Below, one piece after another: positions 29,393-56,804 of a stretch of DNA of 64,000 nt. The notes under the pieces were generated by a model, which did not search any database, was not told where the DNA came from, and saw nothing but the letters and a program-made list of their open reading frames with translations. The stretch lies in NCBI GenBank assembly GCA_032718475.1, contig JAUCBJ010008799.1:62001-126000 (forward strand). The letters run 5' to 3'. The DNA comes from Nemertoderma westbladi (lineage: Eukaryota; Animalia; Xenacoelomorpha). Numbering within the stretch: position 1 is the stretch's first letter; each line of letters begins with the position of its first letter. The translations under genes and the position numbers were made by a program.

Positions 29393-32300
29393 TTATTTAG
29401 TTGTTTTCTTAGCTGTGAAATGTAAAAAGCTGTTCTCATTTTCAAGTAAACGTTTTGGTTCGTCAAATTCCACAATTTCTCCTTCACTCATTACAATGAC
29501 GCGATCACAGGTTAAGATGGTATCTATCCTATGAGCAATTGTCAAAACTGTTGCATTGCGGAAATTCCTTCTGATTGCTGTCTGTATAATTTCATCTGTA
29601 AACTGATCGATAGAAGATGTAGCTTCATCAATTAGAACAACCCTTGATTTTTTTAACATTGCTCTTGCTAAACATACCAATTGTTTCTCACCAATACTTA
29701 GGTTACCTCCACGTCTTTCAATTCCAAATTTCAAAATATCCATTCGTCTCTCAGTGGGAATAAGCGAACCATATTCAAAACATGTGCCACCAACCCATTT
29801 GGAATCAAGTCTCATTTCCAATGAAATTTTCAATTGCACAATTTCTAAAGCCTTAATGATCTCAACAGTATCAAACTCATTAAAAGGATCTAAGTTATAT
29901 CGCAAAGTCCCTTCAAATAGAAAGGGATCCTGTGGAATAACTGCTATGGAGTTCCGCAAATCATGTAAACCAATTTTAGTTATATCAACACCATCAATGG
30001 TGATTATTCCTTGAGGTTCAACAAGACGAAGTAACACTGTAAATAAGGAAGATTTTCCTGCTCCAGTGCGCCCAACTATTCCTATTTTCTCTGATGGTCT
30101 CGTTTTAAGATTTATTCCATGTAGGACCTCTCTGTCTCCATAAGTAAGTTTCACATTTTTGAAGGTGATAATGCCTTCATTTTGCCAATTGTTTGTTATT
30201 TGAATACCAGGAATGAGAAATGGAGCCTCTTGATCGAGTTTAGAGTAATCAAGAACACGTTCAACGGATGTTAAATCAATTTCTAGCTGAGCAGATGTCT
30301 GTATCAAAAAAATTATCATATTCACTATGCCAAACACATATATTACTGCCATACATAATATATCTTTCGATACCAAGTTATCCATATAGAAAGAAATCAA
30401 TAAAACAAATATGCTGAAAACAGCATATGGGGTAGACACAGTTATGGTAAGTAAGGAATTCATTACATTAACCATAAACAATGATTCAGTATGTTTATCT
30501 AAGTGGGTGTAGAAACATTTTACATAAAATGGTTGGACACCAAATGCTTTTATAACATCACGGCCTTCTATGGTATTAGAAGCATGTTGAAATATTGGAT
30601 TTCTTGCTGATCCTTCAATAAACTTCACTTGTTTAAAACTTTTCATAATAGACCGACGAATTCGGAAAATTATGACTAGTAGAGGAATAGCTAACAATAA
30701 AGTCCACGGATTAGCTATTCCAGCAACTAAGATCGCAAGAATACAATGACCAAAAGAAAGCATCATATCACTAACCAATTCTGCTATTCTGTTATCTAAT
30801 ATACCTATGTCTTTAGAGAAACGGTTTAGTATTCCACCTGCAGGATTCTGCTCAAAGAATTTCATTGGTGCATGTGAGACCTTTTTAAATGTGGCACAGT
30901 GTAATTTATCAGATGCACGTAGTATAATGAAATACATCGAAAATATACTGAGAGCACCATATAACAAATATGAAAAAACCAGATATGCATACAAAAGAAC
31001 AATATCTTTCCATTGGCTTTTATTGATAAATTTGTTAATTAAGTTACCATCAAGGGCATCATATTTATCTTTATCATTAAATGATGATTGCATAGCCCAA
31101 GCTACCAACCAATAATTAGACAATGACAAACAAATATATGTTAAACTTAATGTTGATATGAAGAATGAAACAAGTGGTACATTTAAACCACCTTTAATAA
31201 AGATAATAAATTTAGCAAATGATGACTCAACTCTTTGTTCCATGAATATTTCAGATATAATGCCACTATTAAGACCAGGATTACCTCCTTTACCTTCTGA
31301 CATTTGGTTAAAAGTGTCTTCATTATTTTGCAACATTTCCGGTGAATATATAGTAAGTGTTTCAGCAATTTCAATGCCATAAAGTGAAACTATTTTGGAA
31401 TTTGCAGGTATCATTTTTAATAGGTGAGTGACCATTATGACAATTCCTCTGGATCGACAGTGTTCTATACAGTTGTCTACTAAGGTTTGGGCCACTCGTC
31501 TGTCTACAGCTGAGAGAGGATCATCCATGAGGTATATATTTGCCCTTGAATAAACTGCTCTTGCTAAGGCTATACGAGCTTTTTGGCCTCCAGATAATGA
31601 TATTCCTTTTTCACCAACTAATGTCATATCTCCATCTTCAAATTGTAATAAATCCACTGTCAAACAACTTAGTTCAATAACTTCATTGTACCAATCTCGC
31701 TCAAATGTTTGTCCCAACAATATGTTTTCCCTTATTGTACCTGAGAAAATGAATGGTGTTTGAGATACATAAGCCATATTTCCATTTTTCTCAATTGAAC
31801 CACTTTCAGTAGGCAACTCACCTAGTATCGCCTGCAATAGACTGGACTTCCCAGAACCCACTGGACCTACAATGTACACGATTTCACCAAAAACCGCATT
31901 GAATGATATATTTTGAATGACCAATCCATTGTTGACAAACCATCGTCCTGAAATATTCTTTACTTTTAAATAAATTTCTTTGGGGTCAAATACATTTTTA
32001 TGTTTTCCCACTTCTAATTCCTCAACAGCAAATAGATTACAACCGAAACCAATAAATGTATTAATTCGTTGGAAAACACATTGAAGTTCTCCTAATTCAC
32101 GTAAGGCTGCACCAAAAACTGATAAACTTGTAATTAAATTTGACAATATAATGTTCGCACTAAGTACTGCGATTATATTTAAACGAAATCCAAGGGCAGT
32201 ATAAAGAAAAAATACCCAAAATGTAACAATATTGGTATAGGCAAATTTAATGAGAGAGTGGAATGAGTTGCAATACATGATTTTACATATCTGCAAGAAT

Positions 32301-33013
32301 TCTTTACTACGGGCCCTATTTACTGCTTCTTCAAATAATTCTTCCCAGCCATAAACTTTGATAGCTTTCATACCAAATAATATTTCACTCATCATTGTTA
32401 TTCTTCGATCAGTTAACACAGCAGCTTTACCTCTTACAATTGAAAAGTACTTTGCAAATCGCAGACTCAATGGGATAACCAAGATTACCAGAAACATTCC
32501 AAATATTCCAGACCATCCCAGATAGAAAAACATTATTGGAAACGCAAGAATTATCATAATAGGAGTTGAAATCAGACTATTCCCCAAAACTGCAAATATC
32601 TCAAATCTGCCTACATCTGTAGATAACAGGTTGGTAATCTGTCCAATTGTTGTATTTTGGATATTGAAAGAATCTAATTCCATTATTTTTCTGTAAATCA
32701 GGGCACTGCAACCAACCTTAATCTTTATCCACAATAGTTTAGAATAATATGAAGAATTCGTAGATGCAATTATTGATATAAACGAAGCAACTCCAATTAT
32801 CAAGCAATCGATTAATGCTCTTTCTCTGGAAACATTTCTATCAATTTTTAAATAGTATTCAATCAAGCTGTGTAGATATATAACTTTAACTATCAGGCAA
32901 ACTTCGTGAATGGCTTTTAAGATAGAACAAATAAAGAATTCTTTCCAATATATTCGTATTAATATGTCTTTAATATCCCTCTTTTCTCGTCTCTTTCCAT
33001 CTACATTCATAGT
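29393..33013 (-). CDS. ABCC4/MRP4-like ABC transporter, exon 2 (TMD1-NBD1-TMD2-NBD2)
   Basis: 1205-aa uninterrupted ORF. Walker A GPVGSGKS and GRTGAGKS, signature LSGGQ and LSIGEKQ, Walker B YLMDD and LIDE. Acceptor TTTGTAG|ACT at 33014/33013. Confidence 0.93.
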   Translation of the reverse strand, partial: TMNVDGKRREKRDIKDILIRIYWKEFFICSILKAIHEVCLIVKVIYLHSLIEYYLKIDRNVSRERALIDCLIIGVASFISIIASTNSSYYSKLLWIKIKVGCSALIYRKIMELDSFNIQNTTIGQITNLLSTDVGRFEIFAVLGNSLISTPIMIILAFPIMFFYLGWSGIFGMFLVILVIPLSLRFAKYFSIVRGKAAVLTDRRITMMSEILFGMKAIKVYGWEELFEEAVNRARSKEFLQICKIMYCNSFHSLIKFAYTNIVTFWVFFLYTALGFRLNIIAVLSANIILSNLITSLSVFGAALRELGELQCVFQRINTFIGFGCNLFAVEELEVGKHKNVFDPKEIYLKVKNISGRWFVNNGLVIQNISFNAVFGEIVYIVGPVGSGKSSLLQAILGELPTESGSIEKNGNMAYVSQTPFIFSGTIRENILLGQTFERDWYNEVIELSCLTVDLLQFEDGDMTLVGEKGISLSGGQKARIALARAVYSRANIYLMDDPLSAVDRRVAQTLVDNCIEHCRSRGIVIMVTHLLKMIPANSKIVSLYGIEIAETLTIYSPEMLQNNEDTFNQMSEGKGGNPGLNSGIISEIFMEQRVESSFAKFIIFIKGGLNVPLVSFFISTLSLTYICLSLSNYWLVAWAMQSSFNDKDKYDALDGNLINKFINKSQWKDIVLLYAYLVFSYLLYGALSIFSMYFIILRASDKLHCATFKKVSHAPMKFFEQNPAGGILNRFSKDIGILDNRIAELVSDMMLSFGHCILAILVAGIANPWTLLLAIPLLVIIFRIRRSIMKSFKQVKFIEGSARNPIFQHASNTIEGRDVIKAFGVQPFYVKCFYTHLDKHTESLFMVNVMNSLLTITVSTPYAVFSIFVLLISFYMDNLVSKDILCMAVIYVFGIVNMIIFLIQTSAQLEIDLTSVERVLDYSKLDQEAPFLIPGIQITNNWQNEGIITFKNVKLTYGDREVLHGINLKTRPSEKIGIVGRTGAGKSSLFTVLLRLVEPQGIITIDGVDITKIGLHDLRNSIAVIPQDPFLFEGTLRYNLDPFNEFDTVEIIKALEIVQLKISLEMRLDSKWVGGTCFEYGSLIPTERRMDILKFGIERRGGNLSIGEKQLVCLARAMLKKSRVVLIDEATSSIDQFTDEIIQTAIRRNFRNATVLTIAHRIDTILTCDRVIVMSEGEIVEFDEPKRLLENENSFLHFTAKKTTK

Positions 33014-34685
33014 CTACAAAAGAAAAAATGTATATTGTATGATTTAATTCCATGTTGGAGTGCTAAATTAACTTGATTTGGCTAAAAAATACTTGGATTG
33101 GCTAATATAAAATAAGCTATTCTTTTTTTCATTTCATTGATAAACCCAATCGATGCTCGTATTATATTAAAAAAAAACACAGTAAAAGAAGCACGAGCAT
33201 AATAAAATGGTAGTGCGCTATGATAAAATATGATGAAATTGGCACGAATGATCTGGTTGTATTAGTGCAACAATAGAGGAAGAAAATATGTAATATGTAA
33301 GCAATAAGAGCCACACCCACACCAAGCCCTTATTATATACCATAAAATTGCAGTACCCTAGAATGTTTCGAATTCCTCGGAAGATTAAGATTGCTTTAAT
33401 TTTATCTCCCCCCCCCCCCCCCCCCCCTAACGACCACAGATCACTTATATGTTAGGAAAAATTCTTATTTGAGTTACTTTCAATTACATTACCAAACTTC
33501 AGGAATATCTGTATTGTCAGGTAGTAATGAGGAGATGGCATATGAAGGTGTTTGGCATATGAAAATTATTTGGTGTATTTAACATGTTGATATTGGATGT
33601 GGAATTTCATTCTTGAGTGTAGTTCTACATCAAATATCACCTAGTACCTTTATTGATATTTGTTACTTTTTTGTTTATTGGTGTAAACATTGTCCATAAC
33701 GTACTTGCGACAACACTATTGCATTGGTGAGATAGTACAGATGAGAGTTGATATCAGAACAACATACACTGACAATTAAACAACTATTCTTATTCATGAC
33801 ACTTGCTCTGGGGTCTAAGCGAATCGCTATAGCAAAAAATATAGCAAAAGCAATATCTGACAGCAGGTTCCCTGTACGAGTTCAAAGGTCTAGTGAGAAA
33901 GGAGGGTAGATATATAACTAGAACACTCAGGAATTCCAAAAAGCGACTTTCGACATTCTCACCACTGTCGAAAGTCTGCTTATGAAAAGCACTTTAGTAT
34001 GATAATCTCCACCACCTTGGCAAATAAACACACTGTTGCTATTGGTCGGTATGATGAAGATTGTGAGTGATTACGTTGTTTTCCTTTATATACACTCACC
34101 AAAAGAGGAAGGCACCTCCCCAATAGCAATACAGGCAATAATAAGAGGGCAAATTAAACAGCAATAAGAGGCATTTTAATGTGGTTCATATGCTATTATT
34201 ATAAGAGGGATTTAGGATTGACAAGGATACTAGGGCGAAGGATAAGAAGACCTACAAGAGGGCAGTGGGAAAGTTGCCTTCTGGAAGAATTGCACTTAGG
34301 TTAATGAGTCGTCCAATAAATTGGACTGAGGGGGGTGAAAATGAGGGCAATACACCCTTCCCACAAAAATAAACATAAAATAAAAATATAATTACATATG
34401 ATGGATGAGTACAAACGTACTAATGTATACATGTACATCTGATGAGTACAACTGTATAAACGTACATAATATTTAGGAATAGATGGACATATTTATGTAC
34501 GCTTGATGAGTACAAATGTGCTAACGTACATAATTACATACGCACTAATGCCAGGTCAATGGGACCAATGATAGTACATAATACGTACTATTTTTTAGGA
34601 TTAGAAGGATACATAGTACCACATTTAGGATTAGATGAGTACACAGAGAACTGTTACTGACTCTTAATCACAGCAGGCAGGTAAT

Positions 34686-41000: not shown

Positions 41001-41153
41001 TGTTCCGAGTTCTGAAAGATACAATGGTTTAATAGATAACGTAGTTAATGTACCACAAAGTCCTATCTACCGCGGTGTTCGCTCTCACTACGAATGCTGG
41101 ACACTGAAATTAAACTAAAATGTCGGTTTCAGTTTGCCACTTAATTCAGTGAC

Positions 41154-41701
41154 TGTGACAGGATCCAGGAAGGATCCCGGTTTATCCGGTTGTTTAGTTC
41201 ACGCATCCCCGCCGTGTCTATGAAAGGTAAAAAGAGTTCGTGTCGTTCGTCGTATATAATGATCGGTTGTTCGGGTATATAGATATGAGTATAGATATAT
41301 AGATAATATTGTCGTATACAGAAGGCGGGATACGGTAATTAAAGTCCCGGTCCTTCCCTAGCTAAACTAACTAACCTAACTAGCACCAATATGATACTGA
41401 GATAACTGAACTGAAATTATTACTGCCAATTGGCTATATTGCACGGTTGGCCTTGTTACTCTACCTAATCGATGCCTTTCCCCCCTCTGATTGGTTGATA
41501 CCCTTGTTGGCGCCCTTTGGAGTGTTTCCGTTCACTCCACCTGTTCTCTCTGGGTTAGGGGTTTGGCCCCTGACCCTCATTGTGTTTCTCCTTCCCATTT
41601 TGTTGGGGTGACACGAGTTGGTGATTACCCAATCTCGTGGCCCCCAATATTGCTTATCGGCTTAACTTTATGGGGTGTTAGCGGGATTGAATAAGCTAAC
41701 A
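41154..41701 (-). repeat. 3' LTR (548 bp)
   Basis: Near-identical to 52224-52771; preceded on the minus strand by the PPT. Confidence 0.95.
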
Positions 41702-41723
41702 CTCCCCCCCATGCTATCTTCCC
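41702..41723 (-). promoter_or_regulatory. Polypurine tract (GGGAAGATAGCATGGGGGGGAG-like) abutting the 3' LTR
   Basis: G-rich run ending GAG directly before TGTTAG. Confidence 0.8.
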
Positions 41724-42417: not shown

Positions 42418-44964
42418 CTATCTGTTCCTCTGGGGATAGTTCCCCCTGGCGTCCTCTTCCCTGGGTCGTTTCTTGGTTACCACCGCTCCTCTGGGGTCCG
42501 CTTTCTGCTTTCGGACATTCGCCGCCACCTCCCTGCTGATTCCGGTTGTTGGCTCCTTGGGCGCTGGTGTTATTAGTGCCCGATATCGCTTCGCCGGTGG
42601 CCCCTCAGAGTGGCCCTGTTGTCTCCCTCTGGTGGCGTCCCATAGGATCATCTTCATTGCTCGCGGTACGTGCTCCGCCAAGAAATCCCTAAACTCCCCT
42701 CGGTTCTGTGGCGTCCACCTGTCCAAATATCTTTGTGTGTTCATCACTCCGGCATACGACGCCGCCGTTGCTACCTCTTGATAGGTAAACGGTAGCCTCC
42801 GCTTTATGATTTCCATGTGAGCCTCCTGATTGATAAGGAAGAAACCCCACTTGAACTCCTGGGCCTTCATGCGCTGGCGCGTCATGGCCCCGACGTCGGC
42901 CCACTCCTCGAATCTCCTGAACTTCTCTTCGTCGTCCATCCAGTCGCACTGGCGTCCGTAGTGTCCCCGAAAGTTGCACTTTGGACATCGGTTATGCAAC
43001 CGTGGACACGCCCCCATCCTGTGGCTCGGCTCTCGGCAGTAGAGACAAAAGGTTCCCTTTTGGAACCGGTACAAGCAGCTCCTTTCCTGGTGGGTCTGTC
43101 TCCCACAGTAGTCGCAGCCGAGTACCAATGTCTCCCGCCCCACGTCGTCTTTCGTCCCAAGCGATCTCCGCGGTCTGTGGAGTCGCTGGTAGGCGAACTT
43201 CTCCACGTTGGTGTCTCTGTCTACGTCGATCTCTCCGCCCCTCTCGGGCATCGTCTCCCCGAATACTATCCGTGGTGCCGTCCCCGGTTGCTCGCCCAAC
43301 CTGATAGTGCTCCCCGCGAAATCCATCGCCGGCTCCTCGTGCACCCAGGTCCGCTTGCCGGATCTGTTCCAGAAGGCCCTCGCCCCACTGGCCGTCACCA
43401 CCCTTCCGCCAACCCAGTCCGTGTCCGAGTGGCCTATCCTCTCGATGGGCGGCATCTCTCCGAACTCGTCGTCGTCGTCCTCCTCCTCTGGCAGTGGCTC
43501 CAACCCCGGTATCCCGATGGATCCACTATGTCCCTTCCCGCCTTGGCTCTCGCCCGTAGCTCTCCATCCCTCTAGCTCCCTTAACTTCCTTGGCGGTTGG
43601 TCGCCTTCGGCGCCCGCTGGTATGGGCATCGCTTGCAACCCCGACGTCGACTGTTTCGGTGATCCCACCGTCCATCCCAGTTCTCGCCCTAGAGACTCCC
43701 CCGAACTCCCTGACGAAGTCCAATGAAGCTCGTCTAAGCCTGCCTGTTCCTCGAAGCCGTAACTCTGTGTCCTGGCCTCCTCTTCCCTCTCCTCTGCTTC
43801 TATCCTCTCCCGTCTAGCGACTTCTTCCAGTCGCTTTGCTTCTCGTCTATCCGTTTCTAGCTGCTCCCATCTCTGATACGGCGTATCTGTCTCCCCGTCT
43901 ACCAGATGTCGGCTGTTGTAGTACACCGACTCGCCCTTCAGCCCCGGGTGGTCTACCAGACCGTCGAAGGCCATTTTAAAGGCTCTCCTGTAGCTTAGGG
44001 GTGATCCCGATAACAGAAATGCCGCTGGTTCCCTCTCGATAACCACGGTCATAAATAAGTTAAGCAAACTTATCATCATCCAATCTTCCTGCAGGATATA
44101 TCGCTTCTGATATACCTTTATCGCTCCTCTGCGGAATTGATATACCTCTTGCTTTCCCGGTCTCGCTCCCCACTTTAGCGAGTTCGCTAGTTCTGCTCCG
44201 TATTCTTCCCTGAACTTCCCCCAGTCCATCGGTTTGTGGCACACGAGCCCCAATAATTGGCCCATTGCCACCGCCCCGCATTGGCCTGTGTTTTCGACTA
44301 CCCCCAACCCATCCGGTGCCGTCATAGCCATAAAGACCTTCTGCATATCCAGGAGGTTGGTGGCGTCCGGACCGATGATTCTCTCCGCATCCTCGCGAAT
44401 CGCCGATCCTACTTTCGTCGTCGACTTCTCTCTTACCAAGACTTGTACCGCTTTCGGTAACCGGTTTAATTTCGGCCCGTCCTTCTTCCCATACGTTCCT
44501 AGATCGAATAAGAAGATGTCCCCATTTGGCGCGGCCAAATGTAGGAGTATGGTCCTGGCCGACCCCGCCGATCCTCGTCTCGAACCCGCCTCGTCTTCCA
44601 CGGTTCCCTCGTCGTCTAGGATCATATATCCTCCCCTGTTGACGGACTCTATGAATCTCTTCCAGTCCTTCCTCGGTGATTCCCTCGGGTACTTCGGAAT
44701 CCCGAACTTCGCCTCGTCCCCTTTCACCACGTAGTGGAAGTGTTGGAAGATCGCGTTGTCCAGCGACGGCGTCCCGTAGGTCCCGACCAGCCGCTGTTCG
44801 TGCATCTCCCGGAAGTGATCCTGCAGCGCTCGTGCCGCGTGACCCCTTTCCAACCTCTCGTAGTATCCTCTCGTCTTCTCTTCCGGATGCCTCTCGGTGA
44901 AATCCACCAGTATCTCCTTTCCTCCTGACTCCGCCTTTCTCTTTCTGATCAATTTGCTCGCCAT
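42418..44964 (-). CDS. Accessory ORF: DEDDy-like (WRN/EXD/Mut-7/RNase D fold) 3'-5' exonuclease, acidic disordered linker and three CCHC zinc knuckles (848 aa from ATG)
   Basis: ExoI YMILDDEG, then LLHLAAPNGDIFLFDL, LPKAVQVLV, ExoII KVGSAIREDAERI, LLDM, ExoIII QKRYILQED. Knuckles CDYCGRQTHQERSC, CLYCREPSHRMGAC, CPKCNFRGHYGRQC. No stops or frameshifts. Confidence 0.8.
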   Translation of the reverse strand: MASKLIRKRKAESGGKEILVDFTERHPEEKTRGYYERLERGHAARALQDHFREMHEQRLVGTYGTPSLDNAIFQHFHYVVKGDEAKFGIPKYPRESPRKDWKRFIESVNRGGYMILDDEGTVEDEAGSRRGSAGSARTILLHLAAPNGDIFLFDLGTYGKKDGPKLNRLPKAVQVLVREKSTTKVGSAIREDAERIIGPDATNLLDMQKVFMAMTAPDGLGVVENTGQCGAVAMGQLLGLVCHKPMDWGKFREEYGAELANSLKWGARPGKQEVYQFRRGAIKVYQKRYILQEDWMMISLLNLFMTVVIEREPAAFLLSGSPLSYRRAFKMAFDGLVDHPGLKGESVYYNSRHLVDGETDTPYQRWEQLETDRREAKRLEEVARRERIEAEEREEEARTQSYGFEEQAGLDELHWTSSGSSGESLGRELGWTVGSPKQSTSGLQAMPIPAGAEGDQPPRKLRELEGWRATGESQGGKGHSGSIGIPGLEPLPEEEDDDDEFGEMPPIERIGHSDTDWVGGRVVTASGARAFWNRSGKRTWVHEEPAMDFAGSTIRLGEQPGTAPRIVFGETMPERGGEIDVDRDTNVEKFAYQRLHRPRRSLGTKDDVGRETLVLGCDYCGRQTHQERSCLYRFQKGTFCLYCREPSHRMGACPRLHNRCPKCNFRGHYGRQCDWMDDEEKFRRFEEWADVGAMTRQRMKAQEFKWGFFLINQEAHMEIIKRRLPFTYQEVATAASYAGVMNTQRYLDRWTPQNRGEFRDFLAEHVPRAMKMILWDATRGRQQGHSEGPPAKRYRALITPAPKEPTTGISREVAANVRKQKADPRGAVVTKKRPREEDARGNYPQRNR

Positions 44965-45444
44965 TCCGAACACTCACTCGCTCACCTGCAAGGTGGTGCC
45001 TTACCAAGGCGCAATACAGATGAGTGATGTATCTAGGATGTTCTGTACGGTCCGATAATGGCCTATTCCTTACTTAACTGCGCCTTTTAGCCTAAATTAT
45101 TACTAATTAATTCTGAAGCTAGTAAATACACCCTAATTTCGATTTCTGTCCGTTACTTTTATTATGTTCCAGAATAACTTTCCTAGTGTTGCCATAATTT
45201 GTAACTTTCAGCCCTATTCTATTTATTTTTAGTTATTTTAATTCTACTGTCCTACTACTTACTATTGCCTATGGATTATTCTATTCTCTAATCCACATTC
45301 TGGCCTACTCTGTGGGCCTGTGCAGTACAGCAGTATGCGTCGTGTGGCCACACGATTTACCCAGCTGTACTCATATGCCCCCCTCTCGCTACTAACTGCT
45401 AACTAATATCTATATCTTATATACCCTTTTACCTCTTACTCTCT

Positions 45445-46120
45445 CTCTAACTAACGGTACTACGTACCCTCTAACTCTTTCTCTAACTAACGGTACTACG
45501 TACCCTCTAACTCTCTAACTAACTAACGGTACTACGTACCCTCTAACTCTTCTCTAACTAACGGTACTACGTACCCTCTAACTCTCTAACTAACTAACGG
45601 TACTACGTACCCTCTAACTCTTCTCTAACTAACGGTACTACGTACCCTCTAACTCTCTAACTAACTAACGGTACTACGTACCCTCTAACTCTCTCTAACT
45701 AACTAACGGTACTACGTACCCTCTAACTCTCTAACTAACTAACGGTACTACGTACCCTCTAACTCTTCTCTAACTAGCTAATGGTACTACGTACCCTCTA
45801 ACTCTCTAACTAACTAACGGTACTACGTACCCTCTAACTCTTCTCTAACTAACGGTACTACGTACCCTCTAACTCTCTAACTAACTAACGGTACTACGTA
45901 CCCTCTAACTCTTCTCTAACTAGCTACGGTACTACGTACCCTCTAACTCTCTAACTAACTAACGGTACTACGTACCCTCTAACTCTCTACTAACTAACGG
46001 TACTACGTACCCTCTAACTCTCTAACTAACTAGCGCTACTACGTACCCTCTTAACTAACTAACTAACGCTAGGTACTACCGTACCTCTTAACTAACTAAC
46101 TCTAGGTACTACGTACCTTC
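45445..46120. repeat. Tandem array of about 19 copies of a 35-39 bp unit containing the GGTAC-TAC-GTACC mini-hairpin
   Basis: ctaactaacGGTACTACGTACCctctaactct repeated; counted by eye. Confidence 0.9.
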
Positions 46121-46318
46121 TTACTGACTAACTTCTGCCTACTAACTGCGTACCTACTATGTACTATTATTTTATTTTTATTTTTATTTTTTATGTGTGG
46201 GAAGGGCGTCTCGCCCTCAATCCCACCCCCCTCAGTCCAAACTTGGACGACTAAACTCATGACTAACTCCACTAAGGTGCCCCTTCTAACAGACAGGTAA
46301 CACCTCTGCCCGCACCTT

Positions 46319-48952
46319 TTACGGATCTAACTCTTCCATCCCAGTCCAACCTATTGGACAACTCAGCGACCCAAGGGGTGATTCCTCCAGCAGGCAACTC
46401 TCCCACTGCCACCCTATAGGTCCTCTAATTCTTCGCTCCGCTCTCCTTGTCAATTCTGGTGGTCTTTTCTCCTGTCTTTGGAAATGCTGTCTGTTATTTA
46501 TGTTTCTGATCTCGTGGTCGTCCCTTGGCGGCAAAGTGCCACCCTTCAACGTGTCACCCGGCGGTATAATGCCGCCCCTGTTCTTCTCCTTAATCTTAGA
46601 TGCCACCTCTGCTGGCCTCCCCCTTAATATGTGTGCTGGCATTAAAGGCCTCGACGACCCCCGTTCGTCCTTCGGTATACACGATCTCTGCCCATGTAAT
46701 GCCCCTTCGCACTCTGTCAGTCCCGCGTGCGTCTGCAGCACGCCTCCTACTTTCCCGGCTCCTTTGTCCATCACACGCCCACCCACGGGCTTCTCAGCCC
46801 CTGGTCTGGTCGTCTCAAGTCTTCTCCCTTTCCATTTAGTCCTCCTGCTCGGCCTCCCCCTTGTCGGCATGCCTCCCAACCGGACCGGCATCTCTTCCGG
46901 ACACTCCTCCGGCCTGTCCCCCGGACATTTTGCCGTCCGCTCCTCTCCATCTCCATACCGATGCTTGCTGGGACTCTTGTTCCAACCCATCGTCTCTAGA
47001 TCTTCTGCATCCATGCCATTCTCCTCCGCCCACTCTCTTGGTGTTGCTTCCACTTCTAGCTGTCTACCACTATTGCCCATCTCTGGCCTCTCCTCTATCT
47101 CGTCGACAGTTCCTGGCACCATGCATCCTGAACTCTCAGACACATGGAATGGTATATTACTCTTAATTGGGCCTGTCAGTGTCCACCCGAATGGTGTTAA
47201 TATCGCCACCGGGTCACACTGCTTGTCTTCGCCGAAGACCGTTTGCATTCTTTCGTGGGCCGTTGGGCAGTCCATTCCTACTATGATGGATACCTTCCTA
47301 ACGTCCACGTCTGGGATTGAGAAGTCAATGTCGTCCAGGAATTTATATTGCTCGACCTCGATGTTGGTTGGCCGCCTGGCATTGATATTAATTGACTCTA
47401 TCACTTGGATGGGGTCGATGGTTGCCCCATAGTCGCATCCCGGTGCCACTGCTGCAATTGCGCACCGTCCTGTTCTCATCTCCAGGATCTCATCTTTGCT
47501 AGAGATGGTTGTTACCGCCATTCTGCTTGGCCTCGTTCTCAATCCTATCTCTTCGGCCACCCATTCCTCGACTAATGTGAAGGCAGCTCCACTATCAACC
47601 AGCATTAGTGTTGTTACTGATCGATTGCCTTCCCCAATCACTCGCACGGGTACTACTCCAAGTAACACCGTTCCTCTCTTCTTCGCCCCTACTGTGCTCG
47701 TTGCCATCGTTTGGCCTCTCCTTTGACCAAACTTGACCGGCTTCTCCTTGCATTCCCTTGCTCTATGTCCACTCATCACACATCGCGAGCAGATTTTATT
47801 GCTCAACGCATAATCTATCTGATCTTGCCTAGGTAGCGCCTGCCAGTACCTGCAGTTCATGGTTTGATGAAGCGCATTTGCGTGTAGCTGGCATTTGCTC
47901 TTTGGGTCGTAGCCCTCCTTATACAGCGCATTGCGTATCGCAGCTGCGTTTGTACCAAAGTCCCTACTATTCTTATTGTTTGGATTCGGCCTACTGGACG
48001 TACTGGGGTTATATTTATTCGTGTTGTTATTGTTCCCCTGTCCGTTCCATGGTGTTGTCTTATCTTCGGCTAGCTGTGGACTTGCAGTCCCCTGCGTCGC
48101 TGCATATGGCAATGATTGCCTGAGCCTCGGTAATGCGTTTGATGTATTGTGCTCTGGTTTCGGTCTATGGTAATCCGTCTTCGGTCCCTTTCCCAGGCTA
48201 TCTTCGCTATAGACTGGGTCAGTTATTAGTTCAGCCTCGTAGTTTAAGAAGTTTGACATTTCTTCTAAACCCGGTTCCGCACCCTTCTTGTCTCGAGTGG
48301 AGAAAGCGATCTTCCTCCACTTGTTGCGCAGCCAGTTCGGTAGTGCCTGCGCTATCGTGGTGATGTTATTGGACGCGTTGAGCTCGTATGGCGCGTCTAG
48401 CGTCTTCAGCACGATTAGCGCCTTTTCGACTTTGTTAGCGAACGTCTTAATGCTAACGGGATTATCCTGTAGGCCACCCGATGTTATGCCTCTCAGTGTC
48501 TGTCTGATGATCTTGGCCGGGTGCCCGTATTCCCTGTCCAGTGCCCGCCATGCTGTCGTGAAGCCGCCCTCTATTCCTTGATATTGCCTCACGATATCGT
48601 ATGCTGGGCCTCCCGTGTATACTTGCAGATACTTTAGGCACTCCGCCTGCGTCAAGTTTTTTGTTAGTATTTCGTTACTATACATGCGCCGAAACTGTAG
48701 ATATTCTTCCGGCCTACTCCCATCGAATTTGAATGGTTCCACGGGTGGTAACTCGATCCTCGTTTTCAACGCATCGATCAACGTGGCCATCCCCATCGCC
48801 TGCGCTTCCAATGGATTCGATGGGTGCTGTATAGTTTCTCCTGTCTGGTGCGGTTCGTCCGTCCTATTTCTTGATTTTCTTTGACTTGGGTATGTCATCG
48901 GGGGTAGCGGCCCCCTCCATATCTCTGTGTCACACGACCTATTTTCATCCAA
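46319..48952 (-). CDS. Bel/Pao gag core, zinc knuckles, aspartic protease and eroded pol remnant
   Basis: ELPPVEPFKFDG...YLQF (DUF1759-like), LPNWLRNKW, CSRCVMSGHRAREC, MLVDSGAAFTLV, PVAILTPFGWTLTGP. The tail has only traces of the integrase C-terminus (PLMPAHILRG, CLLEE). Confidence 0.85.
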   Translation of the reverse strand: MDENRSCDTEIWRGPLPPMTYPSQRKSRNRTDEPHQTGETIQHPSNPLEAQAMGMATLIDALKTRIELPPVEPFKFDGSRPEEYLQFRRMYSNEILTKNLTQAECLKYLQVYTGGPAYDIVRQYQGIEGGFTTAWRALDREYGHPAKIIRQTLRGITSGGLQDNPVSIKTFANKVEKALIVLKTLDAPYELNASNNITTIAQALPNWLRNKWRKIAFSTRDKKGAEPGLEEMSNFLNYEAELITDPVYSEDSLGKGPKTDYHRPKPEHNTSNALPRLRQSLPYAATQGTASPQLAEDKTTPWNGQGNNNNTNKYNPSTSSRPNPNNKNSRDFGTNAAAIRNALYKEGYDPKSKCQLHANALHQTMNCRYWQALPRQDQIDYALSNKICSRCVMSGHRARECKEKPVKFGQRRGQTMATSTVGAKKRGTVLLGVVPVRVIGEGNRSVTTLMLVDSGAAFTLVEEWVAEEIGLRTRPSRMAVTTISSKDEILEMRTGRCAIAAVAPGCDYGATIDPIQVIESININARRPTNIEVEQYKFLDDIDFSIPDVDVRKVSIIVGMDCPTAHERMQTVFGEDKQCDPVAILTPFGWTLTGPIKSNIPFHVSESSGCMVPGTVDEIEERPEMGNSGRQLEVEATPREWAEENGMDAEDLETMGWNKSPSKHRYGDGEERTAKCPGDRPEECPEEMPVRLGGMPTRGRPSRRTKWKGRRLETTRPGAEKPVGGRVMDKGAGKVGGVLQTHAGLTECEGALHGQRSCIPKDERGSSRPLMPAHILRGRPAEVASKIKEKNRGGIIPPGDTLKGGTLPPRDDHEIRNINNRQHFQRQEKRPPELTRRAERRIRGPIGWQWESCLLEESPLGSLSCPIGWTGMEELDP

Positions 48953-51900
48953 GGGTCTCGTTGTTCTTGCTCCTATCGGGGTATATTGTTGATATTGTGA
49001 TGGGGGAATGTCACCCTGTCCCCCCCCCCACCGGTATGTTTGGTACTGGGGTTGATGTTAATATATTGGGGCCCATACACCTATCCGCAATAATTCCCCC
49101 CTCCCCTGGGTATATGTTATGTCCCTGCATGCTGTAGTCATACTGCTGTACTGGTACCGGTATAGGCCTATCAGCTTCTGGCCTACTCGCCGGTATGTAT
49201 TCCGCGACTTCCGGGTTTAATCCCGTTGTCCGCGCTATCCTATCGCCTACATTGCCTCTCTCAGTATGGCCTATGGTATGTGCAGTAAGGCCTACAGTAT
49301 GTCCTACAGTCTGCATGTGTCGCTCGGGATCGAAGTTTATTCTTCTCGAATAGTCCTCCCCGTGGCTACCGTATTCTCGATCGGTAGGTACATTCCGTCG
49401 GAAAGTTTCTCTTCGACCCCCCTCTCTACTGTTCTCGTCTTCGTACCGGTACATCGCGTACCCCTCCATCGGCGCGTAATGCACCTCACCAGGTCGCATC
49501 TCTCCGGGGTGACGGCAATCTCCCGGAGTCCGACCCTACTGACTCTCCGTTCTCATCTCGACTACCGACGGCTCGCTATCCGTCCTCGCTCTTCTATCGT
49601 TCGCGGCGATACTTTTACTACTGTCTTCTCTTCTTCTCCTTTCAGTGTAGTATTCCCGCTCGTGAGATCTCTCGTCGACCTCCTGGTTAAACCCCACTGT
49701 TCTTCTTCCCTCTTCTGATCGGGCTCGACGCTTCGTCCGCCCTCTCACGACGTCAACCTGTCTCTCTCTGCTCGGTCGCACGCCGCTGGGGATACTCCCA
49801 ATCCCCCTATTACTCTCCGTTGCCGGGTGTTGCGGTTTACCTATTTCGGCCCGCGCATTATCCGCTGACGGCTGTGGAGCACTCTCTGCCCCCCCCTTTC
49901 GCCGCTAACTCGCTGTTGTGGGGCTCTTTTAGCCCCCCCCCCACTCGCCACATCTAACTTCGCTATCTCTCACCCCGCTACTATATCCCTCTCTCATCGA
50001 CACATCAACCCTACCGCGGTCGGGTCTATTCACCCCCGCCTCTCCCTCTGCTATTGCGTGGCCTACCAGGCCCTCTACCTCCTGCCTACCAACTATGTGG
50101 CCTACCAGGCCCTCGCTGGGTCTACCCGACCCAGCCACTCCCTGCCTACCAACTACGTGGCCTACCAGGCCCTCTCTGGGTTGGCTCAATCCCGCCACTT
50201 CCGGCCTACCAATTGTACGGCCTACCAGGCCCCCGTCTGCCTGGCCATACACGCCCGACGTGTTTACGTTAATAGCACCCATATTGGAAACGGAATTAAT
50301 TTGTTCGTTTGAAACAAAATCATTTGAATTATTTTGTAAATTCGGGCTTGGATCATTATTTAAATTATTTGAATTATTTTGCACGTTCAAATTGAAATTA
50401 TTATTTGTACTTAAATTTAAATTACTGCTACTAGGTAAAGTATTATTTGCTGCAATAAAAGGATTAGGGTTGTCCAATACGGTACTATTAATATTAATGA
50501 CGTCTACTATAGCATTATTATTACCCCACCCCCCCCCCCCCCCCCCGCCCATACGGTCACACCAGTCTTGGGTCTGTCGTGCGGTCCCTGTAAGTGGGGT
50601 ATTAATAAATGTATCCACGGCCCCTGGCTCCTCGAAAATACTCGAGCTAGCCCCACTCTCAGACGCCCCTACTCGCGCCAATTCCCGTTCGCGCGTATGT
50701 ATAGCTTTGTATCCTGTAAGCTCACCTTGACGTCTTTCTAGTTCCTTTTGCTCACACTCCTTCCTTGCCATTCTCTCCTTACACTCCCGTGCGTCCCGTT
50801 CGGCCAATTCCAACTCTCTTCTAGCCCCCTCCCTTCATCTCGCCTCACGCTCTCTGCGTTCGTTTTCCTCTCTCGCCTCGCGTTCTTTGCACTCGTTTTC
50901 CTCTCTCGCCTCGCGTTCTCTGCACTCGTTTTCCTCTTTCGCCTCACGTTCCCTATGTTCCGCCTCACGCTCCTTGCGCTCAATTTTCTCTCTCGCTACA
51001 CATTCCCTACGTTCCGCCTCACGCTCTTTGCGCTCATTTTTCTCTCTCGCCTCGCGCCCTTCTTGTTCCTTCCTCCCTACTTCCTCACACTCCCTAAGGC
51101 TTCTCGCGGCCCTTTCGGCCCTCTCTCCGGTTTCCTTAATCAACGCCATTTCCCTCTCTAGCAGCACTCTCCCCTCCTCTAACCGTCTACCTACTTCCCT
51201 TTGACCTTGCTCTATTAAATCGAGACGGTACGTGGCATTTATCTCTCTCACCCGTCTTTCTTTCACGGAGGATGTAGCAGACTTATCGGTTGTAACGGAT
51301 TCCCTCCGCCTCCCCGTCCTACTAACTTTCCCCCGCCTCCCGGAACTTCCTCCGACCGACGAGGCCGAATCCTCGGGGTTAACCTCGGATTCGCCCTCCT
51401 CGGGTCTCTCCCAACCCACTAATTTTACTCCCTGGGCATCGACTAAGTATGGCCCTACGTACACTATGCTAGGTTCCATACCCCTACACCGCCATAGGTC
51501 ATACAGTTCCTCGGCAACCCCTCTCGCTCTCTCCTTGGCCAGTTCTCTTTGCCCGAAGCGCATTAGATAATAAAAGTGTCTATTCGACTCACGTAGTCCT
51601 TTCTTTAGTTTTACCTTGTCTATCTTCGCCCCTCCTCTGGCCTCCTCTAATAGTCTCCGGGTCGCGTTGTAGGCCCGTCGAAGTCGATCAGAAACCCCGA
51701 CGTCCTCGTCGCCGACCTCCCTTCCGTCTCTCCGGGTCCGGCGTCGTACCGTCGGCCCCACCGTCGCCGTTTCGGTGGGCCGCTCGTCGCCCTCGGCCTG
51801 TGGCTGGCCGGCGACGTCGGTACTGACATCTCCTCCATCTCTTCGGGTCCGGCGTCGTACCGTCGGCCCCACCGTCGCCGTTTCGGTGGGCCGCTCGTCG

Positions 51901-52160
51901 CCCTCGGCCTGTGGCTGGCCGGCGACATCAGTACGTCGACCCACGTCTCGTGTCGACTCGTCTCCTTCTCCCTCCATCTCGCTCTCTCCTTCTCTCGGCT
52001 CGACCTCGGGTTCCAGGCGGCCCCCCTCATCCTGAGCTGCCGGATGACCCGTTACCGATGGGTCCGGCATTGTGGGCCTGTACCGCCTGGTTGCGGCCTC
52101 GCGGATCGTTAACTCTTCGTCCGGGGTCCGCGTCGGCGTTGTCTCTCCCGACTGACTCAT
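48953..52160 (-). pseudogene. N-terminal gag extension (low complexity, E/R coiled coil) broken by in-frame stops and G-homopolymer frameshifts
   Basis: ORFs 50835..52160 and 49929..50813 share a frame (single TGA), as do 49536..49781 and 49011..49499 (single TAG). Other breaks coincide with poly-G runs, so some may be sequencing errors. Confidence 0.7.
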
Positions 52161-52223
52161 CTCGCTTGGTGATTGGTGGCTGGTAGTTTAGCTAGCTAGG
52201 GCGGCAGCTCTGAGTTTAATTAC

Positions 52224-52771
52224 TGTGACGGGATCCAGGAAGGATCCCGGTTTATCCGGTTGTTTAGTTCACGCGTCCCCGCCGTGTGTATGAAAGGTAA
52301 AAAGAGTTCGTGTCGTTCGTCGTATATAATGATCGGTTGTTCGGGTATATAGATATGAGTATAGATATATAGATAATATTGTCGTATACAGAAGGCGGGA
52401 TACGGTAATTAAAGTCCCGGTCCTTCCCTAGCTAAACTAACTAACCTAACTAGCACCAATATGATACTGAGATAACTGAACTGAAATGATTACTGCCAAT
52501 TGGCTATATTGCACGGTTGGCCTTGTTACTCTACCTAATCGATGCCTTTCCCCCCTCTGATTGGTTGATACCCTTGTTGGCGCCCTTTGGAGTGTTTCCG
52601 TTCACTCCACCTGTTCTCTCTGGGTTAGGGGTTTGGCCCCTGACCCTCATTGTGTTTCTCCTTCCCATTTTGTTGGGGTGACACGAGTTGGTGATTACCC
52701 AATCTCGTGGCCCCCAATATTGCTTATCGGCTTAACTTTATGGGGTGTTAGCGGGATTGAATAAGCTAACA
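52224..52771 (-). repeat. 5' LTR (548 bp) with clustered TCAGT initiator-like motifs near 52466-52484
   Basis: Near-identical to 41154-41701; gag ATG lies 63 nt downstream. Confidence 0.95.
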
Positions 52772-53138
52772 GTGACAATTACCATATGATACACTTACTG
52801 TATAGTTGTGTGTGGATTTCAGTTGATTCTATTCAATATAAGTTATACAATACTGAACAACAGTATACGGTATCATTGTTGTATTAATATTGTTCTATCA
52901 GTATAAATTAACATACGATAATCATAATGAAAATTATTTAATAATTCCAGTTTTTAATTTCATTTTCAATTAGATAACAAATTTAGTAATATATTATTTC
53001 AGTTTTGGGTACACTGTTAGACAAAAGTTAGTAGGCCTACTACTGTACAACTGTATGAATAGTTGATGTTAGCGGACAGTAGGGTGTGTGAGGGAGACTT
53101 GAGTTAAGGGGAGACTTGATATTTTTGAATAACTCAAA

Positions 53139-55670
53139 CTACTACTACTAGGTCGAGCGAACTCGGACAGTGGAAATGAGATCCTTCCAGGCTTCCCGAT
53201 TCTCCATAGTTGTCGCAATGTCGTTTCTCCCAAGTTCAGTATCCCTTTCAAGTTGATCTATATATGTTATGGCAGGTCGTCCACGACTACGCTTTCCATG
53301 AGTTGGTTGCCAGAGAAGTAGATCTGGTATGACCTCGTCTTTACTTCGCCAGCAGTGCCCACTGAATCTTAATCTGCGTTCACGGAGGGTGGTTGATACA
53401 GGTGGTATTGTACCATAAAGCTCGGCGTTTGTCATGTGTTGTCTCCAGCTGATGTTTAGGGCTGCCCTTAGTAGTCTTGTGTAGCAACCATCAATTCGTT
53501 GTTCAAGTGATTTAGTCCAGGTCTCACCCCCGTATAAAAATACACTTTCCACTGTGGCTCGAAAGAACTTAGTCTTCAGGTGCCTGGAGAGATCTGATTT
53601 CCAGATGGTATCCATTTTTGATAGAGCTACCCAAGCCTTTGCTTTCCTAACTTCTATGTCCTTTTTGCTACTCTCTATCCATGATCCAAGGTACTGGAAG
53701 TCATCGACCTTCCTTAGTTGATTATTATCAATGGTTGTCAAGTTTCCATCAACATTAAAGGTCATGAATTCGGTCTTGGTAGCATTTATATGCAATCCAA
53801 CCTCCTTAGCAGCCCTCTCCACTTTATTTAGTAGTAGCTGTGCATCTGCTAGCGTATTAGAGAGCAGGGCGATGTCATCCGCAAAGTCGGTGTCTGTGAC
53901 TGTAGTTGCCGGATATCTACTACTTCTGCGTTCTTGAAGTGTGAATCCCAGATCTTCACCCTTTGTGGCCGTCCTCATTGCGTAATCCAGCACAATTACA
54001 AATAGTAATGGTGCTAATGTGTCACCTTGCAGTACGCCAGCCAGGATTGAGTAAAACTCAGTTTCACCATCTGGTGAGAGTACCTGCGCTTCTGTGTCAC
54101 AATATAACAATCCAATGCCAGCAACAATTACTTCTGGTATTCCATAAGCTCTTAGGATTTCAAGCATTTTACCTCTATGGATGGAGTCGAATGCCTTCTT
54201 GAAGTCCACAAAGGTCATGACTGCGGGAGGATTCTTTGACTTAATTCCTTCAATCAGTCTCCGTAGTGCAAGTATCTGAGCTATTGTTGATCTACTTGGT
54301 CGAAATCCGTTTTGGCTCTTACGCAGTAGTTTCTCTATGTGAGGCCTAATCCTATAAAGAATCATTTTATTGTATATTTTGGCAGCTACCACAAGCAGAC
54401 AGATCCCACGATAGTTTGTTGGTATGCCGAGGTCTCCTTTCTTGGGGAGAGGCTTTAGTTGACCTTTAGTCCAAATTTGTGGTGGCTTTTCCCCTTTTAA
54501 CATCCGGTTGCAAACAATCAATAATGGTCTATTTAGCACTCCGGTTTTCCATACCTCCGCTGGGATTTCATCTAATCCACTCGCTTTATTATTGGACATG
54601 CTTTTAATGCTTCTTTGGAGTTCGGCAGGTGTGAAGTCCCCTGTTTCTATAAGTAGTGTCTTGTCATATATTTTCCTTGTAGGGCTGACCTCGATGTTTG
54701 GTGGCTGCCCAAGCAAGTTGCTGAAGTGATTTTTCCACTTCCCAACACGTTCTTCAGGACTATCGGCTTTGAGGCGCCCCTTTGCACAACTTTTCCGACC
54801 AGATACCTCATTTACAGTTTGCCAGGTAAGTCTTGATTGTTGCTGTATGTGAGCAGTTGTAATTGCTTCGATTTTATCCTGTATGTACTTTTCCTGGCTG
54901 ATGTTGTAGGCCAATTTAAGATCGTCCTTAGCTTTCTCACACCTTGTTAATGTTTTCGGTTGTTGGTTGTTCGGTTTTAACTTTGTAGGCTATCTTAAGA
55001 TCTTCTCTCTTACAAGTAACCTCAGAGTTTTGCCATGGCACATACTGTTTTCGTTTAGGTTTCTGGGGGATATGCCTCTTAGCTGATTCCTTGTGGGCTG
55101 TTATTATATTCTGGTATATTGAATCGGTGGATTGGTCTTCATCCATTGACTGAAGTGCTTCAAAGCGGTTTTGAACTTCTACTGTATAAGCATCCTTTAC
55201 AGCATTGTCAGTTCTGAGTTTCTCCCAGTCATAGTTGATTTGCTTGCTTGTCCTGGGTTTGCTGGCTCTCAAACTGAGTCTGATCTCTGCAGTCACAATT
55301 CTGTGGTCCGAACCAATTAGGTTGAACGAGCTGTATGCCTCGCAGTTGATCATGCTATTTCTCCACCTTTTGTTTATAAGGATGTAATCCAGTTGTGCTT
55401 TGGTTCCATTAGGGTATTGAAAGGTCCATAGCTTCCCCTTACTCTTTTCGAATGTGTTGTTTGTTGGTATCAATTCACATTCTTCCATTAGGTCTAAAAG
55501 TAAGTACCCATTTCTGTTAGAACTGGTGTTATAGGTGTAACCCTTGATGTCTTCTGGGCCAATTTGCGCATTCAGGTCACCAGCAATGACTTTAACATTG
55601 TGTTTCGGGATGTCCTTAATAAGTCCAGTCAGTTCTTCATAAAACTTGACTGCTTGTTCTGGCTCTGATA
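53139..55670 (-). mobile_element. 5'-truncated RTE-clade LINE (APE-RT), young, one frameshift
   Basis: AGDLNA, QLDYIL, SDH; FVDFKKAFDS, QGDTLAP, FADD, YLGS. (TAG)4 tail and 14-bp TSD ttgaataactcaaa at 53125-53138 and 55671-55684. Confidence 0.92.
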
Positions 55671-56804
55671 TTGAATAACTCAAAAACTATTGTAAATTAT
55701 TTCACAATAACACACCATAATGTTCAAAATACTTGTAGGCTACACCCACGCAACAGTGTTGTATTACCTTTTGGTTATTTTTTGTTTTATTGCCAATAAA
55801 CGTTTTATGGGTTCAAAAGTAAATTGTTAACCTTTACAACGAATGAAAATGCGCACCCTTTTCAAATTATATCATTTAATATAAAAAAAAGGGGTGCGGG
55901 TCGATTCGCCCCTTGACCTATTCGCACCAAGTCTATTCGCCCCAGTAATATAATATACAGTATGTAATATAATAATGAATAGGGTCTATACTATAACTAA
56001 CTATCACTTTTCAAATATTTTTATCTTATCTAGGTATCATTTTTTATCATTCTAATTCAAAAAATCGAATTATAAAGGGAAAAGGTACACATGTTGGTCT
56101 AGTGCGATAATTTACCAATTACAATTACTATACGTGTTCTGTACAGCTGTGTAGTATATTGCATACATAGTATGACATTAGCCTAGACATGCTAGAAAAA
56201 TATTTAAAACAATAAACATGTCAGCATGTAGCCAGCCTGCTCATAAGTCATAATTCATTCTACATCTTGCTGTTCTGTAATTATGCCCAACAATTTATTG
56301 TTGCACCATCAATACACAACAATTGAATCATCAAATGAGACAGGGGGGGCAGTGCCGGATTAACCTTAAGGCATATAAGGCACGTGCCTTTGGGCCAGCC
56401 GAAAATACGGGCCATTTTTTATCAACGAGTCATTCCTATGAAAAAAATATTTTCTAAAATTTGTAGAAAGCAGAGCAAGAAAGTGCATCTTTCGACTACA
56501 TTCGATCCCTAAATTTGTGATAGAAAGTGAAAATTCTAGCTCAGTCGAGGAGTCAGGTGCTGTGTTATTAGTTCGAGACCTGATGGCAGGGAAATAATAA
56601 TACATTGGTAGTAAAACTTTAAAGAGCTAATTATGAACAATGGAGAATTTAATTGAATTTTTTTCAATTTAATTTTAATTATTTGTCGTCAATAACATAA
56701 TATTGCTGATATTTATGACTCTCTGTATAAAAGAGCTTCCGGTAATTCTGTCGGGAATCGAAAACGTAAACTCGCCGAACGGTTCTAAAAAGGTAGTAAC
56801 AAAA

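What the first reader, a model, noticed from the sequence alone, without database searches (positions are those of the whole stretch)
42418..44973. Bel/Pao-derived LTR element carries an intact 3'-5' exonuclease plus triple zinc-knuckle gene in the env slot
Seen: between the gag-PR ORF and the PPT, on the element's own strand, is an uninterrupted ~850-aa ORF. Counting from the listed ORF start it has DEDDy-like motifs D120-x-E122, D195 in KVGSAIRED and Y292-ILQ-E296-D297, plus three CX2CX4HX4C knuckles (nt about 43115-42946). It is the only long coding region of the element that is neither broken nor eroded. A candidate splice acceptor (ccttgcag, about 44986) lies just upstream, as for env-type subgenomic RNAs. 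Known: this fold includes RNase D, WRN-exo, EXD1/2 and the small-RNA trimmers Mut-7/Nibbler. DEDDy cargo ORFs have been described in bdelloid rotifer retroelements, but I know of no exonuclease-knuckle fusion in Bel/Pao. Inference: an RNA-binding exonuclease that trims the element's own RNA (primer maturation) or counteracts piRNA/siRNA silencing.
Basis: partly seen in the sequence, partly recalled or inferred. Interest (0 to 1): 0.9.

Follow-up and report, generated by a model that had tools for sequence, protein, structure and literature searches.

The report
Bel/Pao retrotransposon exonuclease-knuckle third gene
A young jumping gene carries, where retroviruses keep their envelope gene, an intact gene whose product is predicted to fold like an RNA-trimming enzyme joined to three zinc knuckles; dozens of distant Bel/Pao relatives carry the same gene, and it likely binds and processes the element's own RNA.

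Summary
Confirmed, and wider than one window. The 851-codon ORF lies between the pol remnant and the PPT of a young, non-autonomous Bel/Pao element (548-bp LTRs, 99.3% identical, 5-bp TSD). Its N-terminal domain is predicted to have the DEDDy fold (Nibbler Z 15.0; family profile hits EXD2 at E 2e-12). The acidic set is D120, E122, D195, Y292, E296. Three CCHC knuckles and a helical domain follow. 14 of 15 displayed variants among copies are synonymous. In metagenomes, 39 of 44 loci with enough upstream DNA have Bel/Pao pol directly upstream, and pol and exonuclease trees agree (10 of 16 splits), so this is an old inherited third gene. In 9 of 35 relatives it continues in frame after a pol UGA, most with a covarying stem-loop, the signature of stop-codon readthrough. 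One large clade lost the catalytic residues yet stays under selection. Best reading: an RNA-binding 3'-end factor for the element's own RNA (0.5); rival, a silencing suppressor (0.25). DEDDy ORF3s are published for rotifer elements, and this scan noted Rrp6-type ones in Gypsy elements on other DNA. My literature searches found none for Bel/Pao. Activity, splicing and expression are untested.

The parts
52224..52771 (-). 5' LTR, 548 bp, TG...CA
   Evidence: 4 mismatches to the 3' LTR
52772..52776 (-). 5-bp target-site duplication, 5' copy
52215..52223 (-). primer-site position; not of the TGG tRNA type; 9 nt complementary to LTR positions 359-367
   Evidence: chance 0.003 in LTR shuffles; function untested
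49011..52187 (-). N-terminal gag region (coiled-coil, low complexity), broken in this copy by five in-frame stops and a frame change near 49.0 kb
   Evidence: no Pfam hit; assignment to gag inferred from position
46319..49057 (-). open frame with Bel/Pao gag core (DUF1759), knuckle and aspartyl protease, then eroded sequence; no RT, RNase H or integrase core
46273..46424 (-). remnant resembling the integrase C-terminal DUF5641 motif, in another frame
   Evidence: seen by eye in the translation (motif recalled); not detected by the profile
45405..46133 (.). tandem array of about 36-bp units in the 1.3-kb spacer; 50-57 stops in each frame of the spacer, so no readthrough in this element
42418..44973 (-). 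third gene: exonuclease-fold domain, disordered linker, three CCHC knuckles, helical domain; first ATG at 44964
43936..44787 (-). DEDDy-fold domain (about aa 63-346) with D120, E122, D195, Y292, E296
42946..43116 (-). three CX2CX4HX4C zinc knuckles
42634..42936 (-). conserved helical domain after the knuckles (about aa 680-780)
   Evidence: no clear structural match
41702..41710 (-). polypurine tract
41154..41701 (-). 3' LTR, 548 bp
41149..41153 (-). 5-bp target-site duplication, 3' copy

Best explanation
The ORF is an intact, selected third gene that a deep lineage of Bel/Pao LTR retrotransposons carries after pol; its product is predicted to combine a DEDDy 3'-5' exonuclease fold with three zinc knuckles, and it likely binds the element's own RNA and handles its 3' end. 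Shown: position, conservation, purifying selection, co-inheritance with pol, and in some relatives an open frame across the pol stop with a covarying stem-loop. Predicted: the fold. Inferred: the knuckles grip single-stranded RNA and feed its 3' end to the exonuclease pocket, as in trypanosome RNase D. Members with an intact site would trim (for example remove a decay-marking tail); dead members would only bind or shield. Readthrough in some relatives would append the protein to Gag-Pol and deliver it to the particle. In this element it would be made separately, from a spliced or internally started RNA.
For: Fold: AlphaFold model pLDDT 75.7; Nibbler EXO Z 15.0, rmsd 3.1, 204 aligned; WRN 13.8; TbRND 13.8; profile hit to EXD2 E 2e-12. 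Selection: 14 of 15 displayed variants synonymous against 0.33 expected; exo dN/dS 0.04-0.56 in 11 of 12 relative pairs, one saturated. Context: 39 of 44 loci have Bel/Pao pol upstream, 35 with Pfam DUF5641. Co-inheritance: 10 of 16 splits shared, against a mean of 0.17 under shuffling; rho 0.92; n=19. Particle link: open frame from the pol stop to the exo domain in 8 of 13 UGA-C loci against 1 of 22 others, control frames open in 1 of 53; a stem of 7 bp or more starting 10 nt after the stop in 10 of 14 against 1 of 21. This element lost RT, RNase H and integrase but kept gag-protease and this gene. In TbRND the knuckles supply RNA binding and enhance trimming (PMC7797062, section 13).
Against: No activity, binding, expression or splicing data. 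30 of 60 non-redundant exo domains lack at least one catalytic acid (some are truncated or misaligned), so trimming is not universal. This copy has Glu at the fourth acid, of unknown effect. 26 of 35 relatives, and this element, have no open frame across the pol stop, which fits a free protein equally well. The variants were laid at 80% likeness and may come partly from autonomous siblings, which weakens the argument from retention in a non-autonomous family. DEDDy folds act on DNA as well as RNA.
Confidence: 0.5

Rival explanations
1. It is a suppressor of small-RNA silencing: a free cytoplasmic protein that over-trims, degrades or sequesters piRNAs or siRNAs, or decoys host Nibbler/EXD1-type factors.
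For: The best structural match is Nibbler; EXD1 and Egalitarian are also matched. A dead but selected clade could act by sequestration. Most members have a separate ORF. The family appears highly repeated in its host.
Against: Z differences among DEDDy families are about 1-2 and do not assign function. Readthrough fusion would give little protein, tethered to Gag-Pol. A suppressor acting in trans is a shared good that a non-autonomous family would tend to lose (inference).
Confidence: 0.25
2. It is a DNA 3'-5' exonuclease that proofreads reverse transcription or polishes cDNA ends before strand transfer or integration.
For: The fold is shared with WRN, EXD2 and PolA proofreading domains. The gene is co-inherited with pol and fused in frame to it in 9 loci, two of them with all catalytic residues (L029, L076).
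Against: 11 of the 13 aligned readthrough-type members lack the catalytic residues. This element kept the gene while losing RT and integrase.
Confidence: 0.13
3. It matures the reverse-transcription primer, for example a self-primer.
For: This element lacks a TGG-type primer site, and the 9 nt after its LTR are complementary to an LTR-internal stretch (chance 0.003).
Against: By eye, 9 of the 11 relative junctions printed show a TGG-type primer site, so the need is not general. The pairing may be a leader stem-loop.
Confidence: 0.07
4. It is a passenger host gene captured once, with no role for the element.
For: One truncated relative lies in AT-rich DNA without pol (L008, L032 and L072 are one locus).
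Against: Purifying selection, tree congruence and the Bel/Pao context of 39 of 44 loci.
Confidence: 0.03

Closest known systems
DEDDy ORF3 of bdelloid rotifer LTR retrotransposons Juno1/2 and Vesta2/5, and of Athena/Terminons (Rodriguez, Kenefick, Arkhipova 2017, PMC5408684)
   Same: DEDDy/RNase D-like exonuclease as a separate ORF after pol, in the env position; function untested; RNA 3' processing and silencing roles proposed there.
   Different: Host element here is Bel/Pao (Peptidase_A17, DUF5641, DUF1759); the paper lists Juno, Vesta, TelKA and Mag only. It describes no knuckles on ORF3, reports a DEED motif and tested only env-like and GDSL ORF3s for variation (mostly neutral). Here there are three knuckles plus a helical domain, DEDD/DEDE/DEED/dead variants, purifying selection and readthrough-type fusion. 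Direct homology could not be tested.
Trypanosoma brucei RNase D (TbRND; PDB 7C42-7C4C; PMC7797062)
   Same: DEDDy domain followed by tandem CCHC knuckles; top Foldseek hit of the exo model and top, weak, hit of the knuckle model.
   Different: A cellular guide-RNA trimmer with four fingers and a short linker; 15-17% identity; here a linker of about 270 disordered residues and an extra helical domain. Likely convergent (inference).
Nibbler/Mut-7, EXD2, WRN-exo, EXD1, Egalitarian
   Same: Same fold (Z 12-15); family profile closest to EXD2.
   Different: Cellular genes with other accessory domains; 11-15% identity; the source family cannot be named.
Type II stop-codon readthrough signals of alphaviruses and furoviruses (Firth et al. 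2011, PMC3159437)
   Same: UGA-CGG context with a stem 7-12 nt downstream; the CAR-YYA context also occurs (L031, L034).
   Different: Here it follows pol of a retrotransposon and has an invariant UCGG at +19/+20; seen in relatives, not in this element.
Rrp6-like exonuclease-HRDC-knuckle ORF3 of Gypsy elements
   Same: DEDDy plus zinc knuckle in the ORF3 slot.
   Different: Other superfamily; no HRDC hit in 40 of 79 family proteins scanned.

Membership tests
Bel/Pao LTR retrotransposon | LTRs with TG...CA ends, short TSD, PPT | tested here: met
Bel/Pao LTR retrotransposon | Bel/Pao-type gag (DUF1759) and aspartyl protease | tested here: met
   (E 6e-11, 2e-5); profile of relatives' gag-pol hits gag and protease
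Bel/Pao LTR retrotransposon | RT, Pao-type RNase H and integrase in pol | tested here: not met
   deleted in this element, so it is a non-autonomous derivative; present in relatives
Bel/Pao LTR retrotransposon | tRNA primer-binding site | tested here: inconclusive
   no TGG-type site here; host tRNA set not available; relatives have one
DEDDy 3'-5' exonuclease | DnaQ/RNase D fold | tested here: met
   predicted model
DEDDy 3'-5' exonuclease | ExoI D-x-E, ExoII D, ExoIII Y-x3-D | tested here: inconclusive
   D120, E122, D195, Y292 in register; fourth acid is E296, shared by a five-member clade
DEDDy 3'-5' exonuclease | metal-dependent 3'-5' nuclease activity | not testable with these tools
   needs a bench assay
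Rotifer DEDDy ORF3 (Juno/Vesta/Terminon pool) | sequence kinship with those ORFs | not testable with these tools
Rrp6/RNase D with HRDC | HRDC domain after the exonuclease | tested here: inconclusive
   no Pfam HRDC hit; helical C-terminal domain has no match above Z 3.8
env gene | membrane fusion glycoprotein | tested here: not met
   the folded parts are an exonuclease-like domain and knuckles; no env family hit

The most novel reading that the evidence does not exclude
A widespread Bel/Pao lineage encodes its own RNA 3'-end counter-defence enzyme, a TbRND-like de-tailing or small-RNA-trimming nuclease with a new knuckle-helical RNA-binding module, and some branches load it into the particle by programmed UGA readthrough of gag-pol, while one branch has turned it into a pure RNA-binding pseudonuclease.
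Probability: 0.3. Interest if true: 0.85.

Novelty: new variant of a known kind. Interest (0 to 1): 0.7.

Why it matters
Why retroelements keep DEDDy exonuclease genes has been open since the rotifer report. This family makes it testable: dozens of divergent members come with natural contrasts (active against dead site; separate ORF against readthrough-type fusion) inside one superfamily. It extends the arrangement to Bel/Pao and suggests repeated, independent recruitment of exonuclease plus knuckle. It also offers a candidate recoding signal after pol, and a candidate for an element-encoded counter-defence in animals.

Tried and rejected
Single-sequence Pfam and PDB searches did not detect the exonuclease. 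Word-based homologue searches found nothing. Locus searches with single proteins or a small alignment found nothing in metagenomes or viral contigs, nor did the motif in viral contigs. No whole genome is held, so copy number and autonomous siblings could not be examined directly. No RNA holder was listed; run X6 is only guessed to be RNA and showed no joint among the rows displayed, which is no evidence either way on splicing. The knuckle-helical model had no Foldseek match at E 0.001 and a best Z of 3.8; this does not show a new fold. The atlas search for that domain did not complete. No tRNA gene lies in the element. Self-priming as a family trait was dropped. Readthrough in this element was rejected. 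The DNA context of the four closest exo relatives (P0006, P0008, P0009, P0017) was not obtained. The host taxon was not determined.

Full report
The element. An 11,618-bp LTR element lies on the minus strand. Its LTRs are at 52771-52224 and 41701-41154, 548 bp each, TG...CA, with 4 mismatches, a 5-bp target-site duplication and a polypurine tract. It is inserted in a repeat that has another copy at 9490-9980. The N-terminal gag region is broken in this copy by five stops and a frame change. A 912-codon frame then holds DUF1759 (E 6e-11) and an aspartyl protease. A profile of 13 relatives' gag-pol proteins hits only gag and protease here, so RT, RNase H and integrase core are gone; a DUF5641-like remnant is visible by eye (motif recalled). 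The element is a young insertion of a non-autonomous Bel/Pao derivative. The host is likely an animal (inferred from the element types; not determined).

The ORF. It spans 44973-42418, 851 codons, first ATG at 44964. Pfam gave no hit. The 1.3-kb spacer before it has 50-57 stops in each frame, so here it needs its own RNA. The proposed acceptor is weak and nothing shows splicing.

Selection. Contigs of four runs laid at 80% likeness cover the whole element; in X1 and X3 summed depth over the ORF is in the tens of thousands, against about 100 in the left flank. That is no copy number but indicates many copies. The call displayed 40 of 1,806 differences, the best supported. 15 fall in the ORF and 14 are synonymous, against 0.33 expected for transitions (p 2e-6). 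The display is a selection, and some copies may be autonomous siblings.

Family and fold. HMMER over 1.84 billion representatives gave 79 hits at E 0.001, all through the knuckle region. An iterated local profile finds the N-terminal domain in 33 of the 39 hits of 440 aa or more. In Pfam, 2 of 40 scanned hits match DNA_pol_A_exo1 weakly. The family profile hits EXD2 at E 2e-12, and the atlas gives PF01612 clusters at 0.94. The AlphaFold model of aa 4-360 (31 rows, pLDDT 75.7) matches Nibbler EXO at Z 15.0 (rmsd 3.1, 204 aligned), and WRN and TbRND at 13.8; TbRND leads the Foldseek list. The catalytic register is D120, E122, D195, Y292, E296. The ORF falls in a five-member clade with Glu at the fourth acid. 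The knuckle-helical part folds confidently (pLDDT 83.9). The closest exo domains are only about 25% identical.

Context of relatives. A degenerate knuckle motif matched 120 listed metagenome stretches (about 300 estimated); 80 came with flanks, 67 of them from one accession series, so sampling is uneven. 78 of the 80 hit the family profiles. Of 44 with 700 nt or more upstream, 39 have Bel/Pao pol there. I scanned 56 of 67 upstream ORFs and 4 downstream ones in Pfam: 35 loci have DUF5641, many also Peptidase_A17, and no Gypsy- or Copia-specific family appeared at E 1e-5. The five exceptions are one truncated locus sampled three times (L008, L032, L072) and two fragmented loci (L012, L052). No two of the 35 are near-identical. 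For the 19 loci with long pol and an intact third gene, pol and exo-plus-knuckle trees share 10 of 16 splits (shuffle mean 0.17, maximum 3), pairwise identities correlate at 0.92, and one supported conflict remains. Median pol identity is 37%, so the gene has been inherited over a long span. The search started from this gene, so it does not say what share of Bel/Pao elements carry it, and knuckle invariance is partly by construction.

Active and dead forms. Of 60 non-redundant exo domains (72 aligned), 24 keep D-E-D-D, 6 have D-E-D-E and 30 lack at least one acid (some truncated or misaligned). One large clade has lost the site. dN/dS of the exo domain is 0.10-0.55 in five active pairs and 0.04-0.56 in six dead pairs; one pair is saturated. 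Both forms are kept by selection.

Readthrough signature. In 9 of 35 loci the frame stays open from the pol stop to the exo domain over 460-840 nt: 8 of 13 loci with UGA-C against 1 of 22 others (Fisher p 4e-4); control frames are open in 1 of 53. The other five UGA-C loci have a frame offset or one stop in the linker. In the group of 14, a helix of 7 bp or more starts 10 nt after the stop in 10, against 1 of 21 others; its pairs vary in compensating fashion, and UCGG stands at +19/+20 in 11. The group was defined after seeing the data and its members are related, so the p-values overstate. The layout matches type II readthrough signals: UGA-CGG with a stem 7-12 nt downstream (PMC3159437, passages). 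11 of the 13 aligned members are catalytically dead; L029 and L076 are intact. A Met at the start of the domain is conserved in these loci too, so separate initiation may coexist. Readthrough is inferred, not measured, and does not apply to the window's element.

Mechanism. The constant features are the exonuclease fold and the knuckles, not catalysis. In TbRND the knuckles supply RNA binding and raise trimming of U-rich ends (PMC7797062, passages and section 13). Fusion to Gag-Pol in some branches points to the particle, and this element kept the gene with gag-protease while losing RT and integrase. I therefore rank an RNA-binding 3'-end factor for the element's own RNA first (0.5), a silencing suppressor second (0.25), DNA proofreading or end polishing third (0.13) and primer maturation fourth (0.07). 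By eye, 9 of 11 relative junctions show a TGG-type primer site.

Prior knowledge. Rodriguez et al. 2017 (PMC5408684; main text read, parts 1-3 of 5; figures not seen) describe DEDDy ORF3s in rotifer Juno, Vesta and Terminon elements, with no knuckles mentioned on ORF3 and no Bel/Pao elements. Passages of PMC6431247 and PMC6338049 add nothing on Bel/Pao. Searches pairing Bel/Pao or Belpaoviridae with exonuclease, extra ORF or readthrough gave no listing that describes this gene (listings only). Subscription papers and Repbase entries were not searchable. This scan's notes report Rrp6-type exonuclease-knuckle ORF3s in Gypsy elements on other DNA (unchecked) and nothing for this sequence, place or Bel/Pao.

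Verdict. Real, selected and lineage-wide; a new variant of a known kind. Interest 0.7.

Noticed in passing
L007:1228-1311 (+), L031:6678-6761 (+), L066:3766-3849 (-) and 11 more loci: Pol ends in UGA (UGA-C in 13) followed after 9 nt by a covarying stem-loop, with UCGG in 11 of 14; candidate programmed readthrough into the third gene.
   Followed up: yes
window 52223-52215 and LTR positions 359-367: No TGG-type primer site; the 9 nt after the 5' LTR are complementary to an LTR-internal stretch (chance 0.003). Possible self-priming or leader stem.
   Followed up: partly
window 29393-33013 and 4539-8168 (-): Two ABC-transporter gene copies, 87% alike over 3.7 kb; one is an uninterrupted 1206-codon frame without introns, the other is in pieces.
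   Followed up: no
window 303-2141 (-): A second Bel/Pao-like gag-protease, running towards the window's left edge.
   Followed up: partly
window 34214-34398 (+): Fragment 77-78% similar to this element's pol remnant and spacer start; no exonuclease ORF follows in the window.
   Followed up: partly
L008:1481-3001 (-), same locus as L032 and L072: Truncated family member in AT-rich DNA with no pol upstream; a relic or a host-kept copy.
   Followed up: partly
L058, L022, L041, L003: A clade with the DEED-type motif (L022 DEKD), the variant reported for rotifer ORF3s; L058 and L022 have Bel/Pao pol upstream.
   Followed up: no
P0003: A relative with the knuckle-helical module duplicated.
   Followed up: no
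window 53148-55686 (-), 59060-62899 (+), 16242-18833 (+): LINE-type retrotransposon frames; 59060-62899 is an open 1279-codon endonuclease-RT frame; the last is assigned by eye only.
   Followed up: no
window 25968-26649 and 28708-29029: Long imperfect palindromes, likely MITE or foldback elements.
   Followed up: no
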